Positions 3,913-6,924 of a stretch of 64,000 nucleotides of DNA are shown here, piece by piece (within the stretch, counting starts at the first letter, position 1; the number at the start of each line of letters is the position of its first letter). Made by a program: the position numbers and the translations under genes. A model generated the notes under the pieces. That model did not search any database. It saw only the letters and a program-made list of their open reading frames with translations, and was not told where the DNA came from. The stretch is from Patescibacteria group bacterium (GTDB taxonomy: Bacteria; Patescibacteriota; Patescibacteriia; Patescibacteriales; UBA12465), in NCBI GenBank assembly GCA_050949505.1, contig JBMNFV010000001.1:94284-158283 (forward strand), written 5' to 3'.

Positions 3913-6900
3913 TTATGTCGCTCTAAATATTTCTGATAAACTAGTTTCTCCCGCTAACGCTTTTAAAATTCCATCTTGTAGCACTGTCACCATCCCATTC
4001 TTTATCGCTGCTTGCTCAATTTCATAGTCAGTCACTCGCTCTACTTGAACTAACTTTTGAATTTCCGGAGTCATTACTATGGCTTCATATAGTCCAATTC
4101 TCCCCTTATATCCTATCCCCCCACAATGCTCACAGCCAACTCCTTCATAAAATTCTAATTTTTCAGGAACCACTACTTGAGGATTATTAATCTCCGCCAA
4201 GGCCTCCTTGACTCTAGCCTCATCTTCAGCTGAGATTGCTGCCACTTGTTTGCAATGGGGGCAGAGTCGTCTAACCAGTCTCTGACCGATTGTATACTCA
4301 ATTGCATTAGCTAATATCTGTCTATCTAGTCCCAGTCCCGCAAAGCGAGAAATTGCTCCAGCGGCACTATTAGCATGAATAGTTGAGAGAACTAAGTGTC
4401 CCGTCATCGCTGCCTCCATAGAAATTTTAGCAGTCTCCTGGTCACGAATTTCTCCGATCATCATAATATTAGGGTTTTGCCTTAATAATGATCGCATTGC
4501 AGCGGCAAAAGTATAGCCCCGAGATTCATCTATTTGAGTTTGCATGATTCCGGCTAATTGATACTCTATCGGATCTTCAACGGTAATAATTTTTACATCT
4601 GGTTGATTTAACTTATTTAAAATACTATATAAAGTTGTGGTCTTTCCACTGCCAGTGGGCCCGGTGGTTAAAATAATTCCCCTGGTGCTCTTCATCGCTT
4701 TCTCTAGTGAACTTTGAGTGATGGGGGTGATTCCCAATTTTTCCATTTCCAAGTTAACCGCACTAGTTGATAACATTCTAATTACAATCGTCTCTCCATA
4801 ACCACCAGCAACTATTGATAAGCGACAATCAATCTTTTTGTTTGGCAAATAGACACTAAACCGACCATCAAAGGTAGCCCGTTTAATATTAGTTTCTGTT
4901 CCCGCTAAAATCTTAATCTCCGACAATAAAGGCAGGTAGCTAGTTTTTGGTAACTGGAAAATATCATGCATCACGCCATCAATTCTAAACCGGATATTAA
5001 CACTATCTTCCCGTGGGTCAATATGGATATCACCTGCATCCTTCAGCGCCGCCAAAGTCATCACAAAGCCCATTAGTTCTGAGCTAGGGATTTCCTTGGC
5101 CTGCGCAACTATTTGTTCATTGCTTTTATTGATCTCCTGATATCTCTGATAATCTGCCTCTTTGATCTTTACCCCTCGGCCTATGGTTTGCGAGATAACA
5201 ATATCGTAAAGCTCATCTATGTAGTCAAAGTTGCCAATTACCCGATAGACCTCTGCTAAAGAACTTTGCCCGGCTAAGACCTTTAAAACTCCGTCTTGGA
5301 GCATAGTGATCATCCCATTTTCAATGGCCTGCTGCAGAATCTTAAATGCTGGAGCCTTGTCTATGGTTAGCTGCTTAAGCTTATCATCCATGGTAAAGAC
5401 TTCATATATCCCCAATCGCCCTTTGTAGCCAGTAAAGTTGCATTGCCTACAGCCCTCGCCTGATTGATAAATAGTTGGTAAGTTAGCTGGAATATTTAAC
5501 CCTGCCCGAGGAGAGACTACCGCTAAAATCTTATGCACCTGCTCCTCTTCCTCAGCTGATAATAGTTGCTCTTGTCGGCAATAGGGGCAAAGTCGCCTAA
5601 TTAAGCGCTGACCAATAACTGCATTAATAGAGGGCACGAGAAAATATGGCTTAACCCCAATATCAATTAATCTAGGAATTACTCCAGCGGCATCGTTAGT
5701 ATGCAAGGTTGATAAAACCAGGTGTCCCGTTAATGAGGCTTGAACTGCTATCTCGGCTGTTTCCAGGTCTCTAATTTCACCGACCATTACTACATTAGGG
5801 TCTTGACGCAAAATTGACCGCAAGCCATCAGAGAAGGTGTAGCCCCGTTTAACATCAACTTGACTTTGATTAACTCCTTTTAATTGATACTCAATCGGGT
5901 CTTCTAGGGTAATAATTTTAGTGCCTGGTTGATTTAACTTATTAATCACTGAATACAGCGTGGTAGTTTTTCCACTACCAGTTGGTCCAGTGGTTAAAAT
6001 TAAGCCATTAGGCTTATTAATTTCCCTGTTTAATAGCGGGATAATCTCTGGTCTAAGCCCTAGGTGCTCCATTTCTAAATATGACTCAGACGAGTCTAAT
6101 AGACGCATCACCACGCTCTCGCCAAAGGCTGTCGGTAAGAAAGAGCAGCGCACATCAATTTCCTTATCTTGAAGAAAGATGGTAAAACGTCCGTCTTGAG
6201 GCTTATCTTCTATATTTATTTTAACTCGCGCTAATATTTTTAGTCGGGAAATTATTTTTTTCCATTTATCTTTATTAATCCGCGCTGCTTCTTGCAAAAC
6301 TCCATCTAAGCGGAACCTGATCGCAATCTCGCTCCCCTCAGCCTCTATATGAATATCGCTAGACTCTGACTTAAGGGCGGCGGCTAATAGCAAGGTAATA
6401 ATATCACTAACATTAACCTGATTAACCTTTTCGTTAAGACTGCGAAAATCAGCTATTTCTTTTTGGAATTTTTGTAAACTCTCCTCATTAATCTCAATTC
6501 CATTCTCATTGCGCCTAACTTTAGGTAGACGTTTATATTCTTCAATCGCGTGCTCTAGACTAGTCTTAGAAATTAAATAAACCTTCACTGAGGCAAAGTA
6601 CTTATCTCCCAATTGGTCAGCAATAACTTGCACCTCATCACTATATTCTAAACAGCCAAGACGAATACTGTCTCCATCATAATAAAAACAAACTAACTCC
6701 AAGTCTCTAGCTAAATTCTCAGCCACTAACACCAGGGCCTCAGAGCTAATCGGAAAGCCTAGCAGACTAATGTAAGGCAAACCCAAAGAACTTGCTTTCG
6801 CCTGAGCAACCTTTTCTATTTCTTTTAATTTAATCTCCTCTTGCTTTTTAGCAAACCGACCGGCGACACTATCTTCGTCATCGGTCGGATTAATCAAGGA

Positions 6901-6924
6901 GTCAATTGAGGACAGTCCGCTCAT
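3913..6924 (-). CDS. Tandem-duplicated type II/IV secretion (PilB/GspE family) ATPase, two complete ATPase modules in one polypeptide
   Basis: Walker A [13 protein letters not shown] occurs twice. Asp/Walker B boxes are VVMVGEIRD and IMMIGEIRD; His boxes are [12 protein letters not shown] and [12 protein letters not shown]. There are two tetracysteine motifs (CPYC..CRQC, CPHC..CEHC) and an N-terminal T2SSE_N-like region. Confidence 0.9.
   Translation of the reverse strand: [1003 protein letters not shown]

What the first reader, a model, noticed from the sequence alone, without database searches (positions are those of the whole stretch)
3913..6924. Covalently duplicated PilB/GspE secretion ATPase: two complete motor modules in one 1003-aa protein
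A single uninterrupted ORF contains two full copies of the type II/IV secretion ATPase core. Each copy has an intact Walker A: [43 protein letters not shown] and [43 protein letters not shown]. Each has a Walker B/Asp box (VVMVGEIRD / IMMIGEIRD), a His box ([12 protein letters not shown] / [12 protein letters not shown]) and a tetracysteine zinc motif (CPYC...CRQC / CPHC...CEHC). Only the first copy carries the T2SSE_N-like N-terminal domain. Canonical family members are single-module proteins of about 550-600 aa that form homohexamers. A fused dimer would therefore assemble as a trimer of pseudo-dimers with two non-equivalent, separately evolvable subunit types. No pilC, pilM/N/O, pilin or secretin gene is adjacent, so this may not be a standard pilus locus.
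Basis: partly seen in the sequence, partly recalled or inferred. Interest (0 to 1): 0.72.

Follow-up and report, generated by a model that had tools for sequence, protein, structure and literature searches.

The report
Tandem double-motor PilB-family ATPase
A real, strongly conserved gene of ultra-small Patescibacteria encodes two complete pilus-motor ATPase units fused in one chain; this tandem form of a well-known enzyme family is common in databases but I found no description of it, and it probably builds its six-unit ring from three chains.

Summary
Window 3913-6924 (minus strand) is one uninterrupted 1003-aa ORF. It has one N-terminal MshEN-like domain followed by two complete PilB/GspE-type modules (N2+CTD). 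The modules are 45% identical, and each has Walker A, Asp box, Walker B, His box and a tetracysteine.

It is not an assembly artefact. The same ~1000-aa architecture is open in every locus not cut by a contig end, among 80 species-representative Patescibacteria genomes. Of 264 collected full-length homologs, 262-264 keep each catalytic motif in both modules. The inter-module linker stays at 40-53 residues.

Module 2 forms its own clade, which points to one old duplication. Younger independent tandem fusions and one three-module variant also exist.

The gene always stands alone among housekeeping genes. In one 922-kb contig it coexists with a canonical pilB-pilC-pilin-pilM-pilN operon, so it is an extra paralog, not the only PilB.

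The sequences have been public since 2012-2015 under generic names. I found no paper and no solved structure covering the tandem form.

The favoured model is a trimer forming a six-module ring with both module types catalytic. This is inferred, not shown. Verdict: a new variant of a known kind, of moderate interest.

The parts
3913..6924 (-). Complete ORF, 1003 aa plus stop: N1 domain, module 1, linker, module 2
   Evidence: full-length homologs of 1003-1005 aa at 69-99% identity
6529..6786 (-). N1: MshEN/T2SSE_N-like domain (aa 47-132), present once only
   Evidence: Pfam PF05157, E = 3.9e-4, 20.8 bits, below the 23.1 cutoff; PF05157 is listed for many homologs
5236..6414 (-). Module 1 (aa 171-563): N2 domain plus catalytic CTD. 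Canonical signature [10 protein letters not shown]
5080..5235 (-). Inter-module linker (aa 564-615). Its first 22 residues, [22 protein letters not shown], are nearly invariant. From about aa 583 it is homologous to the pre-N2 segment of module 1 (aa ~142-170)
   Evidence: length 40-53 aa (median 49) in 264 homologs
3916..5079 (-). Module 2 (aa 616-1003): second N2 domain plus CTD. Derived signature [10 protein letters not shown]
   Evidence: module 2 forms its own clade
5965..5988 (-). Walker A of module 1, GPTGSGKT (aa 313-320)
   Evidence: intact in 262/264 homologs
4639..4662 (-). Walker A of module 2, GPTGSGKT (aa 755-762)
   Evidence: intact in 263/264 homologs
5767..5793 (-). Atypical Walker B of module 1, VVMVGEIRD (catalytic E383). 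The pore Glu E388 follows just downstream
4441..4467 (-). Atypical Walker B of module 2, IMMIGEIRD (catalytic E825). The pore Glu E830 follows just downstream
5701..5730 (-). His box of module 1, [10 protein letters not shown] (T399, H401, H408)
4375..4404 (-). His box of module 2, [10 protein letters not shown] (T841, H843, H850)
5440..5589 (-). Tetracysteine (zinc) motif of module 1, CPYC...CRQC
   Evidence: invariant in alignments A1 and A3
4123..4263 (-). Tetracysteine (zinc) motif of module 2, CPHC...CEHC
6928..7905 (-). Upstream polytopic membrane protein (325 aa, no family match). Its stop lies 3 nt before the ATPase ATG, so it is probably co-transcribed. The adjacency is conserved in the Falkowbacteria-type group only
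   Evidence: absent from Moranbacteria-type contexts
3335..3910 (-). Downstream Translin-family gene (191 aa), starting 2 nt after the ATPase stop. The adjacency is conserved in the Falkowbacteria-type group only
   Evidence: Pfam PF01997, E = 2.9e-18; synteny

Best explanation
This is a chromosomal, stand-alone gene of a Falkowbacteria-like member of the Patescibacteria. It encodes a lineage-specific paralog of the type IV pilus / type II secretion 'extension' ATPases (PilB/GspE family). One N1 domain is followed by two complete motor modules (N2 + catalytic domain), joined by a length-constrained ~50-residue linker.

Shown: the fusion is real and old, and it is under strong purifying selection in both modules. 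Both modules keep every residue known to bind and hydrolyse ATP and to couple neighbouring units in PilB.

Inferred: both modules hydrolyse ATP. Three chains assemble into a ring of six modules with alternating module types (A-B-A-B-A-B) and only three N1 domains. The ring works like PilB, by rotary ATP turnover acting on a PilC-type platform protein to drive filament assembly.

Because the gene is never inside a pilus operon, and it coexists with a canonical single-module pilB operon in at least one genome, it most likely serves as a second or alternative motor (for a second filament or function) rather than as the cell's only PilB.
For: Real and conserved:
- The top 120 clusters are all 1003-1005 aa at full coverage.
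- A second fused group of 1006-1020 aa occurs in Moranbacteria and Parcubacteria.
- The junction is present in the best 80 of 316 hits among species-representative genomes.
- The frame is open (1004-1025 codons) in all loci not cut by a contig end.

Both modules look catalytic:
- Over 264 fused proteins, Walker A is intact in 262 (module 1) and 263 (module 2), Walker B in 263 and 264, and the His box in 264 and 264.
- The PilB_Gm residues R257, R271, R286, E357, E400, T411, H413, H420 and R455 map to conserved R246/R688, R259/R701, R274/R716, E345/E787, E388/E830, T399/T841, H401/H843, H408/H850 and R443/R885.
- Each module superposes on solved PilB chains, TM-score up to 0.89 normalised to the target.

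One old duplication with stable non-equivalence:
- Module 2 is a near-exclusive clade.
- Module 2 carries the signature RQNP where module 1 has RQDP.

Consistent with an in-ring arrangement:
- PilB hexamers are chains of N2D(n)+CTD(n+1) packing units, 'beads on a string'.
- The linker length is fixed at 40-53 aa.
- The pore Glu is kept in both modules.
- Tandem fusion arose independently in P0127, P0128 and P0136, and a three-module form exists (P0271). Both 2 and 3 divide 6.
- No module has degenerated despite ~45% divergence, as expected if every ring position must pass through all catalytic states.

Paralog status:
- One 921,850-bp contig holds the fused gene (L085) and also a canonical operon with a 584-aa PilB, PilC, prepilins, PilM and PilN (L089).

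Link to a platform protein:
- PilC genes share contigs with fused genes in six or more cases.
- An orphan PilC lies about 5 kb from the fused gene in L083 and L090.
Against: - There is no direct evidence on oligomeric state. The AF2 monomer has pTM 0.47 and a low-confidence hinge at aa 576-582, and I had no access to coordinates or to multimer prediction.
- No pilus gene is adjacent in the window or in any of the 82 Falkowbacteria-type loci.
- Coexistence with a canonical PilB was shown in one genome of the Moranbacteria-type branch only, not in the window's own group.
- Neither half reaches any curated equivalog cutoff for PilB, GspE or ComGA, so the system it powers is not defined by sequence.
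- All solved PilB hexamers are C2 (CCOCCO). An A-B-A-B-A-B ring can be only pseudo-C2.
- Most natural tandem ring ATPases stack their tiers rather than alternate within a ring (my own knowledge: KaiC, p97, ClpB).
Confidence: 0.5

Rival explanations
1. Stacked double ring. Six chains assemble so that module 1 forms one homo-hexameric ring and module 2 forms a second, coaxial ring, as in KaiC, p97/NSF or ClpB. One tier drives the platform and the other regulates or adds power.
For: From general knowledge, tandem P-loop ring ATPases usually stack. The two modules are independently conserved, with few module-specific signatures. AF2 gives no confident intrachain packing of the modules (pTM 0.47).
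Against: PilB-family rings are built from inter-chain N2D(n)+CTD(n+1) packing units with the N2 face towards the membrane and PilC in the pore. A second tier could not reach PilC, yet both modules keep the pore Glu and all coupling residues. The three-module variant would need three tiers. There is a single N1 domain per chain.
Confidence: 0.2
2. It is simply the organism's ordinary type IV pilus assembly ATPase (the PilB ortholog). The duplication is a neutral elaboration and has no separate role.
For: Databases label it PilB/GspE. It has PilB-type features: an N1 domain, a tetracysteine, and best structural matches to PilB. In L083 and L090 the only nearby platform gene is an orphan PilC about 5 kb away. 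CPR pilus genes can be dispersed.
Against: In one 922-kb contig it coexists with a full operon carrying its own 584-aa PilB, which is only 39-44% identical to either module. The fused gene was not inside a pilus operon in any of the contexts fetched (88 loci centred on fused genes). Per-module scores fall well below the PilB equivalog cutoff and rank GspE at or above PilB, whereas the operon PilB ranks PilB first.
Confidence: 0.2
3. One module is a non-catalytic regulatory or scaffolding pseudo-ATPase, like the alpha subunits of F1. Only three sites per ring hydrolyse ATP.
For: Module 2 carries a family-wide Asp-to-Asn change (RQDP to RQNP) just before Walker B. It also evolves somewhat faster between lineages: module 2 versus module 2 averages 45% identity, against 51% for module 1 versus module 1. 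The outlier P0136 has lost the Walker A lysine in module 1.
Against: Walker A, Asp box, Walker B and His box are intact in at least 262 of 264 proteins in both modules. The nucleotide-sensing arginines are conserved in both.
Confidence: 0.07
4. Artefact: two adjacent paralogous genes misjoined by an assembly or sequencing error (a lost stop codon or frameshift).
For: None beyond the a priori possibility.
Against: The same uninterrupted frame occurs in every locus not cut by a contig end among 80 species-level genomes, including closed chromosomes CP066698.1 and OW818634.1. It also occurs in hundreds of clusters from NCBI, JGI, ENA and Logan assemblies. The junction segment is itself among the most conserved parts of the protein.
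Confidence: 0.01

Closest known systems
PilB, type IVa pilus extension ATPase (e.g. Geobacter metallireducens PilB, PDB 5TSG/5TSH; Myxococcus PilB, 3JC8)
   Same: Same N1-N2-CTD layout for the first half. Both modules share the fold (TM-score up to 0.89 normalised to the target, ~42% identity). Walker A, Asp box, atypical Walker B, His box, tetracysteine, pore Glu and nucleotide-sensing arginines are all present.
   Different: There are two N2+CTD modules per chain and only one N1. It is encoded away from pilC/pilM/pilins. Per-module NCBIfam scores (477.5 and 403.6) are far below the PilB equivalog cutoff of 675.65. It coexists with a separate operon-encoded PilB in at least one genome.
GspE/EpsE, type II secretion ATPase (PDB 1P9R, 4KSR, 4PHT)
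   Same: Same superfamily and motif set. GspE is marginally the best-scoring NCBIfam model for each half (493.5 and 427.5).
   Different: The scores are below the cutoff of 630.25. According to the literature, Patescibacteria lack the outer-membrane secretin needed for type II secretion. GspE is single-module.
Thermus thermophilus PilF (PDB 5IT5, 5OIU, 6F8L)
   Same: A long (about 900 aa) PilB-family protein made long by internal duplication. Module 2 matches its core at E ~1e-89.
   Different: PilF duplicates the N-terminal GSPII/MshEN domains and has one ATPase core. Here the ATPase core is duplicated and the N-terminal domain is single.
Natural tandem ring ATPases (KaiC, p97/NSF, ClpB) and engineered covalently linked ClpX subunits (analogy; my own knowledge)
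   Same: Two P-loop ATPase modules in one chain, which allows non-equivalent sites within one oligomer.
   Different: They belong to unrelated or only distantly related families. The natural examples stack the two modules as separate tiers. For the PilB fold, an alternating single ring is the more likely arrangement, but this is untested.
Single-module PilB of the canonical CPR pilus operon (L089 8242-9996; 584 aa)
   Same: Same phylum and same family. It has MshEN + T2SSE domains.
   Different: It is only 39-44% identical to either module. It lies next to PilC, prepilins, PilM and PilN. It has the RQDP signature of module 1 and a single module.

Membership tests
Pfam T2SSE (PF00437), type II/IV secretion system protein E superfamily | Match to the family HMM above the gathering score | tested here: met
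   769 bits against a cutoff of 24.9, in two stretches (best stretch aa 171-561). Each half also matches on its own.
PilB/GspE-type extension ATPases (as opposed to PilT-type retraction ATPases) | Catalytic motif set: Walker A, Asp box, atypical Walker B with catalytic Glu, His box | tested here: met
   Present in both modules. Conserved in at least 262 of 264 fused homologs per module.
PilB/GspE-type extension ATPases (as opposed to PilT-type retraction ATPases) | C-terminal tetracysteine zinc-binding motif (absent from PilT) | tested here: met
   CPYC...CRQC and CPHC...CEHC. Invariant or nearly so in alignments A1 and A3. By a simple CxxC regex, some family members show only one CxxC pair: 51/264 in module 1 and 93/264 in module 2.
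PilB/GspE-type extension ATPases (as opposed to PilT-type retraction ATPases) | N-terminal N1 (T2SSE_N/MshEN, PF05157) domain | tested here: inconclusive
   20.8 bits, E = 3.9e-4, below the gathering score of 23.1 in the window protein. It passes in relatives such as P0271 (26.5 bits) and is listed for many homologs. It is present once, not once per module.
NCBIfam TIGR02538 type_IV_pilB (equivalog) | Score at or above the curated cutoff of 675.65 for one PilB unit | tested here: not met
   The halves score 477.5 and 403.6. The whole-protein score of 870.7 exceeds the cutoff only because two modules are summed.
NCBIfam TIGR02533 type_II_gspE (equivalog) | Score at or above the curated cutoff of 630.25 for one GspE unit | tested here: not met
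   The halves score 493.5 and 427.5.
NCBIfam NF041000 ComGA (competence pilus ATPase, equivalog) | Score at or above the curated cutoff of 300 | tested here: not met
   The halves score 247.5 and 236.8.
NCBIfam TIGR01420 PilT/PilU subfamily | Score at or above the curated cutoff of 319.1 | tested here: not met
   The halves score 180.7 and 160.6. The tetracysteine and N1 domain also argue against a PilT type.
Type IV pilus machinery (functional membership) | Genomic association with platform (PilC), alignment (PilM/N/O) and pilin genes | tested here: not met
   None found in the 64-kb window (larger ORFs) or by the PilC and prepilin-motif scans of the first 88 fetched loci, apart from the PilC in L083. 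An orphan PilC lies about 5 kb away in L083 and L090. PilC occurs on the same contigs as fused genes in six or more cases.
PilB mechanism (McCallum 2017) | Residues that sense nucleotide across packing units and line the pore (R257, R271, R286, E357, E400, T411, H413, H420, R455 of PilB_Gm) | tested here: met
   All map to conserved residues in both modules.
PilB mechanism (McCallum 2017) | Hexameric ring of six N2D+CTD packing units; ATPase activity | not testable with these tools
   Only a monomer AF2 model was possible (pLDDT 76, pTM 0.47). No multimer prediction or biochemistry was available.

The most novel reading that the evidence does not exclude
Patescibacteria carry a dedicated second filament motor whose six-module ring is built from covalently linked PilB modules: three two-module chains, or two three-module chains in the P0271 variant. 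The ring has obligatory alternation of two stably non-equivalent but fully catalytic module types and only three N1 adaptor domains. It acts on a PilC-type platform for a function distinct from the canonical pilus operon, for example DNA uptake or host attachment. If so, it would be a natural counterpart of engineered linked-subunit ring ATPases and would constrain which symmetry (C2 or C3) PilB-type motors can use.
Probability: 0.35. Interest if true: 0.65.

Novelty: new variant of a known kind. Interest (0 to 1): 0.5.

Why it matters
- **Motor mechanism.** PilB/PilT-family motors are thought to work by rotary ATP turnover in a homohexamer. Whether the functional symmetry is C2 or C3, and how subunits are coordinated, is still debated. 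A natural covalent dimer, and a rare covalent trimer, of complete PilB modules fixes neighbour relationships. It halves the number of N1 adaptor domains. It would also allow module-specific mutations in a defined ring position, the kind of experiment that in other ring ATPases required engineered linked subunits.
- **Biology of Patescibacteria.** The protein is as conserved as UvrA across at least 80 Patescibacteria species, and it coexists with a canonical pilus operon in at least one genome. It is therefore likely to matter for the surface-filament or DNA-uptake biology on which these episymbionts depend.
- **Annotation.** The whole-protein HMM scores exceed the 'equivalog' cutoffs only because two modules are summed.

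Tried and rejected
- **Artefact or misjoin.** Rejected.
- **Literature.** Seven full-text searches, plus targeted reading of a 2024 PilB review, the 2017 and 2019 motor-mechanism papers, the CPR protein-family paper and a 2026 'novel CPR pilus' preprint, found no mention of a tandem PilB. Subscription-journal papers are not covered by this library.
- **TM325 and Translin as obligate partners.** I first suspected the upstream membrane protein was a platform analogue. Rejected as a universal partner: the adjacency holds only in the closely related Falkowbacteria-type group, where ArgRS and UvrA are equally syntenic. Moranbacteria-type genes have DHH upstream and RuvB downstream instead. TM325 has no family match even at E <= 10.
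- **AF2 monomer for inter-module geometry.** pTM of 0.47 and no coordinates, so uninformative. Foldseek can only match one module at a time.
- **Module monophyly.** Module 1 is not a clean clade; it is interleaved with single-module PilBs. Only module 2 is. The tree is neighbour-joining only, without support values.
- **A canonical PilB in the window's own group.** I could not establish this.
- **Coevolution or DCA to choose between the in-ring and stacked models.** Not attempted. About 260 sequences, many of them close relatives, are too few.
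Full report
**1. The observation**

The ORF is real but lies on the minus strand: ATG at 6924, stop at 3913-3915, 1003 aa. Pfam finds T2SSE (PF00437) in two stretches, 769 bits in total. BLASTP of residues 1-566 against 567-1003 aligns 422 residues at 45% identity, E = 2e-135.

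I converted them to window coordinates and checked them by translation. The duplicated unit starts at about residue 142 in the first copy and about 583 in the second. It therefore comprises the pre-N2 linker, the N2 domain and the catalytic C-terminal domain. The N-terminal MshEN/T2SSE_N-like domain (aa 47-132) occurs once, and in this protein it scores just below Pfam's threshold (20.8 against 23.1 bits).

The 64-kb window is ordinary chromosome. It carries a 16S rRNA gene, ten tRNAs, and dnaA and dnaN at the GC-skew minimum, plus aminoacyl-tRNA synthetases, uvrA and topA. It holds no second T2SSE gene, no prepilin-like ORF and no PilC.

**2. Not an artefact, and not rare**

A search of 5.8 billion proteins returned, as its best 120 clusters, only proteins of 1003-1005 aa covering 100% of the query at 69-99% identity. 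They come from NCBI, JGI, ENA and Logan assemblies. Where named, they are 'GspE/PulE family protein' or 'PilB' of Candidatus Falkowbacteria or the Patescibacteria group.

A junction-specific scan of one genome per species (GTDB) found 316 matching stretches. The best 80 all span the whole junction. In all of these loci that are not cut by a contig end, the reading frame is open for 1004-1025 codons. Two of them are closed chromosomes.

An exhaustive HMMER scan of 1.84 billion representatives (50% identity clusters) found 15,960 T2SSE relatives at E <= 1e-30. Only 14 of the listed representatives have the two-module ~1000-aa architecture, at 37-60% identity to the query.

A profile built from those distant members retrieved a second large fused group of 1006-1020 aa in Moranbacteria, the Parcubacteria group and Paceibacterota. 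It includes ACD_15C00060G0002 from the 2012 dataset and a 2015 GW2011 Moranbacteria entry annotated 'Type IV-A pilus assembly ATPase PilB'.

So the architecture is widespread within Patescibacteria and has been public for over a decade under generic names.

**3. Both modules look fully functional**

Across 54 close homologs, the motif regions of both modules are the most conserved parts of the protein. The first 22 residues of the inter-module linker ([22 protein letters not shown]) are nearly invariant.

Motif census over 264 full-length two-module proteins:

| Motif | Module 1 intact | Module 2 intact |
|---|---|---|
| Walker A | 262 | 263 |
| Asp box | 262 | 263 |
| Walker B | 263 | 264 |
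| His box | 264 | 264 |

The linker between the module envelopes is 40-53 residues, median 49.

I aligned each module to the G. metallireducens PilB chain; the chain index equals residue number + 20, which I checked on the Walker A and Asp-box positions. McCallum et al. 2017 (PMC5424180) assign certain residues to nucleotide sensing between packing units, to the His-box relay and to the pore. They map as follows:

| PilB_Gm residue | Module 1 | Module 2 |
|---|---|---|
| R257 | R246 | R688 |
| R271 | R259 | R701 |
| R286 | R274 | R716 |
| E357 | E345 | E787 |
| E400 (pore) | E388 | E830 |
| T411 | T399 | T841 |
| H413 | H401 | H843 |
| H420 | H408 | H850 |
| R455 | R443 | R885 |

All are invariant or nearly so in the family. 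R246 is invariant only among the close homologs; two distant members have His at that position.

The AF2 model has mean pLDDT 76, and each module matches solved PilB and PilF chains with TM-score up to 0.89 normalised to the target. No PDB chain covers more than about one module (TM-score <= 0.36 normalised to the query), and the sequence search of the PDB finds only single-module relatives.

**4. Evolution**

In a neighbour-joining tree of 169 N2+CTD modules, module 2 of the main family forms a near-exclusive clade. It holds 15 module-2 sequences, two obvious fragments of fused proteins and one single-module protein. Module 1 is interleaved with single-module PilBs. This fits one old duplication, with module 1 staying canonical and module 2 diverging. 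Among main-family representatives, module 2 versus module 2 averages 45% identity, against 51% for module 1 versus module 1.

Only three aligned positions are conserved at 85% or more in both modules yet differ between them. They cluster just upstream of Walker B: G367/I371/D375 ([10 protein letters not shown]) in module 1 and in single-module PilBs, against A809/L813/N817 ([10 protein letters not shown]) in module 2. By contrast, 97 of 395 columns are conserved and identical in both. The modules are therefore stably but subtly non-equivalent.

Tandem fusion has also happened independently:
- P0128 has modules 74% identical.
- P0127 has modules 55% identical.
- P0136 carries T2SSF (platform-protein) domains in front of two T2SSE modules and has lost the Walker A lysine in module 1.
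- P0271 (1460 aa) is a three-module derivative of the Moranbacteria-type gene, in the same genomic context. Its modules are 46-59% identical and all three keep Walker A and B. It is known from a single contig.

**5. Genomic context and the machine it might serve**

In the window and in all 82 Falkowbacteria-type loci the order is: polytopic membrane protein (325 aa, no family match), then the fused ATPase, then a Translin-family protein. All three are on one strand with gaps of a few bases. ArgRS lies upstream on the other strand and UvrA downstream.

These genomes are broadly collinear, and the more distant fused genes have other neighbours:
- DHH phosphoesterase upstream in five of six contexts (L083-L086 and L090; not L087 or L088).
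- RuvB immediately or closely downstream in five (L083, L085, L086, L087, L090).
- PolA, TsaE and RuvC nearby.

I therefore do not treat the membrane protein or Translin as obligate partners.

Identity to the window across the 80 species is 61-80% for the ATPase, 57-78% for UvrA, 43-61% for ArgRS, 41-69% for Translin and 30-49% for the membrane protein. The fused ATPase is thus among the most constrained genes in the neighbourhood.

No fused gene is inside a pilus operon. In two Moranbacteria contigs an orphan PilC sits about 5 kb from the fused gene.

The key result concerns the 921,850-bp contig Ga0451577_0000003. It carries the fused gene P0351 (L085). About 100 kb away it also carries a canonical operon: histidine kinase, response regulator, a 584-aa single-module PilB (MshEN+T2SSE), PilC, two prepilin-type proteins (G|FTLIEM and G|MSFVEM), a PilX_N-like protein, PilM and PilN (L089). 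That PilB is only 39-44% identical to either module of the fused proteins.

So, at least in that genome, the fused protein is an additional paralog. I could not test this in the window's own group.

**6. Family membership**

The protein is a member of the T2SSE superfamily and of its PilB/GspE 'extension' branch, on the evidence of the motifs, the tetracysteine, the N1-like domain and the structural matches. It is not a PilT type.

It does not qualify as an equivalog of type IVa PilB, type II GspE or ComGA. Scored separately:

| Model (cutoff) | First half | Second half |
|---|---|---|
| PilB TIGR02538 (675.65) | 477.5 | 403.6 |
| GspE TIGR02533 (630.25) | 493.5 | 427.5 |
| ComGA NF041000 (300) | 247.5 | 236.8 |

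The whole-protein scores pass the cutoffs only by summing two modules. Type II secretion is unlikely on general grounds, because CPR lack the secretin (Meheust et al. 2019, PMC6744442).

**7. How it most likely works**

Shown: there are two complete, conserved, PilB-type modules per chain, with a fixed linker length and a single N1 domain. The gene is a stand-alone paralog, and it co-occurs with PilC in the same genomes.

Inferred:
- (a) Both modules hydrolyse ATP.
- (b) Three chains form one ring of six modules.
- (c) The ring acts on a PilC-type platform, like PilB.
- (d) It serves a function distinct from the canonical operon.

The case for (b) rests on several points. PilB rings are 'beads on a string' of N2D(n)+CTD(n+1) packing units, with PilC in the pore. 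Linking consecutive beads covalently is therefore topologically natural, whereas a second stacked tier could not reach PilC. Both modules keep the pore Glu. Two-module and three-module forms both divide six. Fresh tandem duplications (P0128) are evidently tolerated.

The complete retention of catalytic and coupling residues in both modules after divergence to about 45% identity is what a rotary mechanism predicts, since every ring position must pass through every state. It argues against an F1-like arrangement of alternating catalytic and non-catalytic sites.

One tension remains. All solved PilB hexamers are C2 (CCOCCO), and an A-B-A-B-A-B ring is exactly C3 and only pseudo-C2. This is why the protein would be informative for the symmetry question.

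The stacked double-ring rival cannot be excluded with the tools available. I give the in-ring model about 0.5 and the stacked model about 0.2.

**8. Novelty and verdict**

The enzyme family, its fold and its chemistry are well known. The tandem-module architecture is abundant in databases, but as far as the searchable literature and the PDB show, it is neither described nor structurally characterised.

I classify it as a new variant of a known kind. Interest is moderate (0.5): it is not a new kind of system, but it is a conserved, lineage-specific re-engineering of a much-studied motor, with clear and cheap experiments that could decide its assembly and role.

Noticed in passing
window 3335-3910 (-): A Translin-family protein (PF01997, E = 2.9e-18; 191 aa) starts 2 nt after the ATPase stop. 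The adjacency is conserved in all 80 Falkowbacteria-type loci where the contig extends that far (41-69% identity). As far as I know, Translin homologs are unusual in bacteria. NCBIfam only gives sub-threshold 'PRK14562' hits.
   Followed up: partly
window 6928-7905 (-): A 325-aa polytopic membrane protein with no Pfam or NCBIfam match, even at E <= 10. Its stop lies 3 nt before the ATPase ATG. It is always upstream in the Falkowbacteria-type group (30-49% identity) but absent from the contexts of distant fused genes. The best promoter-like site for the three-gene unit is at 8010-7982 (-).
   Followed up: partly
L084 10001-14383 (protein P0271): A 1460-aa protein with one N1 domain and THREE complete T2SSE modules (46-59% identical to each other, all with Walker A and B), in the same DHH-upstream context as two-module orthologs. 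The middle module looks like module-2-type N2 joined to module-1-type CTD, which suggests unequal crossover. It is known from one JGI contig only.
   Followed up: partly
protein P0136 (1047 aa; no locus fetched): An independent architecture: T2SSF (platform-protein) domains (78.5 bits, 2 stretches) fused N-terminally to two T2SSE modules. The Walker A lysine is replaced by Thr in module 1. It is a singleton cluster (NCBI + Logan) from an unnamed organism.
   Followed up: partly
proteins P0128 (995 aa) and P0127 (994 aa): Independent, younger tandem PilB fusions, with modules 74% and 55% identical. Each protein's two modules fall together among single-module PilBs in the NJ tree, apart from the main family's module-2 clade. 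Tandem duplication of this ATPase is therefore recurrent.
   Followed up: partly
L083 13468-14454; L085 13331-14341; L087 4041-5048; L086 12456-13511; L090 273-1262: ruvB lies immediately or closely downstream of the fused ATPase gene in five divergent Moranbacteria/Parcubacteria-type contexts, with ruvC/yebC, polA and tsaE nearby. In the Falkowbacteria type, the neighbours are Translin and uvrA. This may be ancestral synteny or a hint of a DNA-related role. Not tested.
   Followed up: no
L089 8242-17407: A canonical CPR type IV pilus operon: two-component system, 584-aa PilB, PilC, a 459-aa and a 212-aa prepilin-type protein, a PilX_N-like protein, PilM, PilN and two small membrane proteins. 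No PilT lies within 10 kb.
   Followed up: partly
window 52601-55360 and 52000-56000: dnaA (463 aa) and dnaN (371 aa) sit at the minimum of cumulative GC skew, next to the lowest-GC stretch of the window (0.30 at 54-56 kb). This is probably the replication origin region.
   Followed up: partly
window 29265-30743 (+): A complete bacterial 16S rRNA gene (1479 nt, 1434 bits) with no 23S or 5S match anywhere in the 64-kb window. The rRNA genes appear to be unlinked.
   Followed up: no
window 11302-11562 (+): An 86-aa Lys/Ala/Val/Pro-rich low-complexity ORF (…KKPAAKKPAVKKAVKKAVKK…), resembling histone-H1-like basic proteins. The 110-aa ORF on the opposite strand (11235-11567) is its Phe/Ala-rich mirror image and is probably spurious.
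   Followed up: no
L003-L082 record titles: Many third-party-annotation (TPA) metagenome-assembled genomes that carry this Patescibacteria-type locus (fused ATPase, Translin, UvrA and ArgRS in the same order) are titled 'uncultured Gammaproteobacteria bacterium'. These are almost certainly placeholder or wrong taxonomic labels.
   Followed up: no
fused family, C-terminal domains: By a simple CxxC regex, 51 of 264 proteins have only one CxxC pair in module 1. In module 2, 93 of 264 have only one pair and one protein has none. Examples are 'LCDCKE' and 'LCSCKK' variants. The zinc site may be remodelled or lost in part of the family, more often in module 2.
   Followed up: partly
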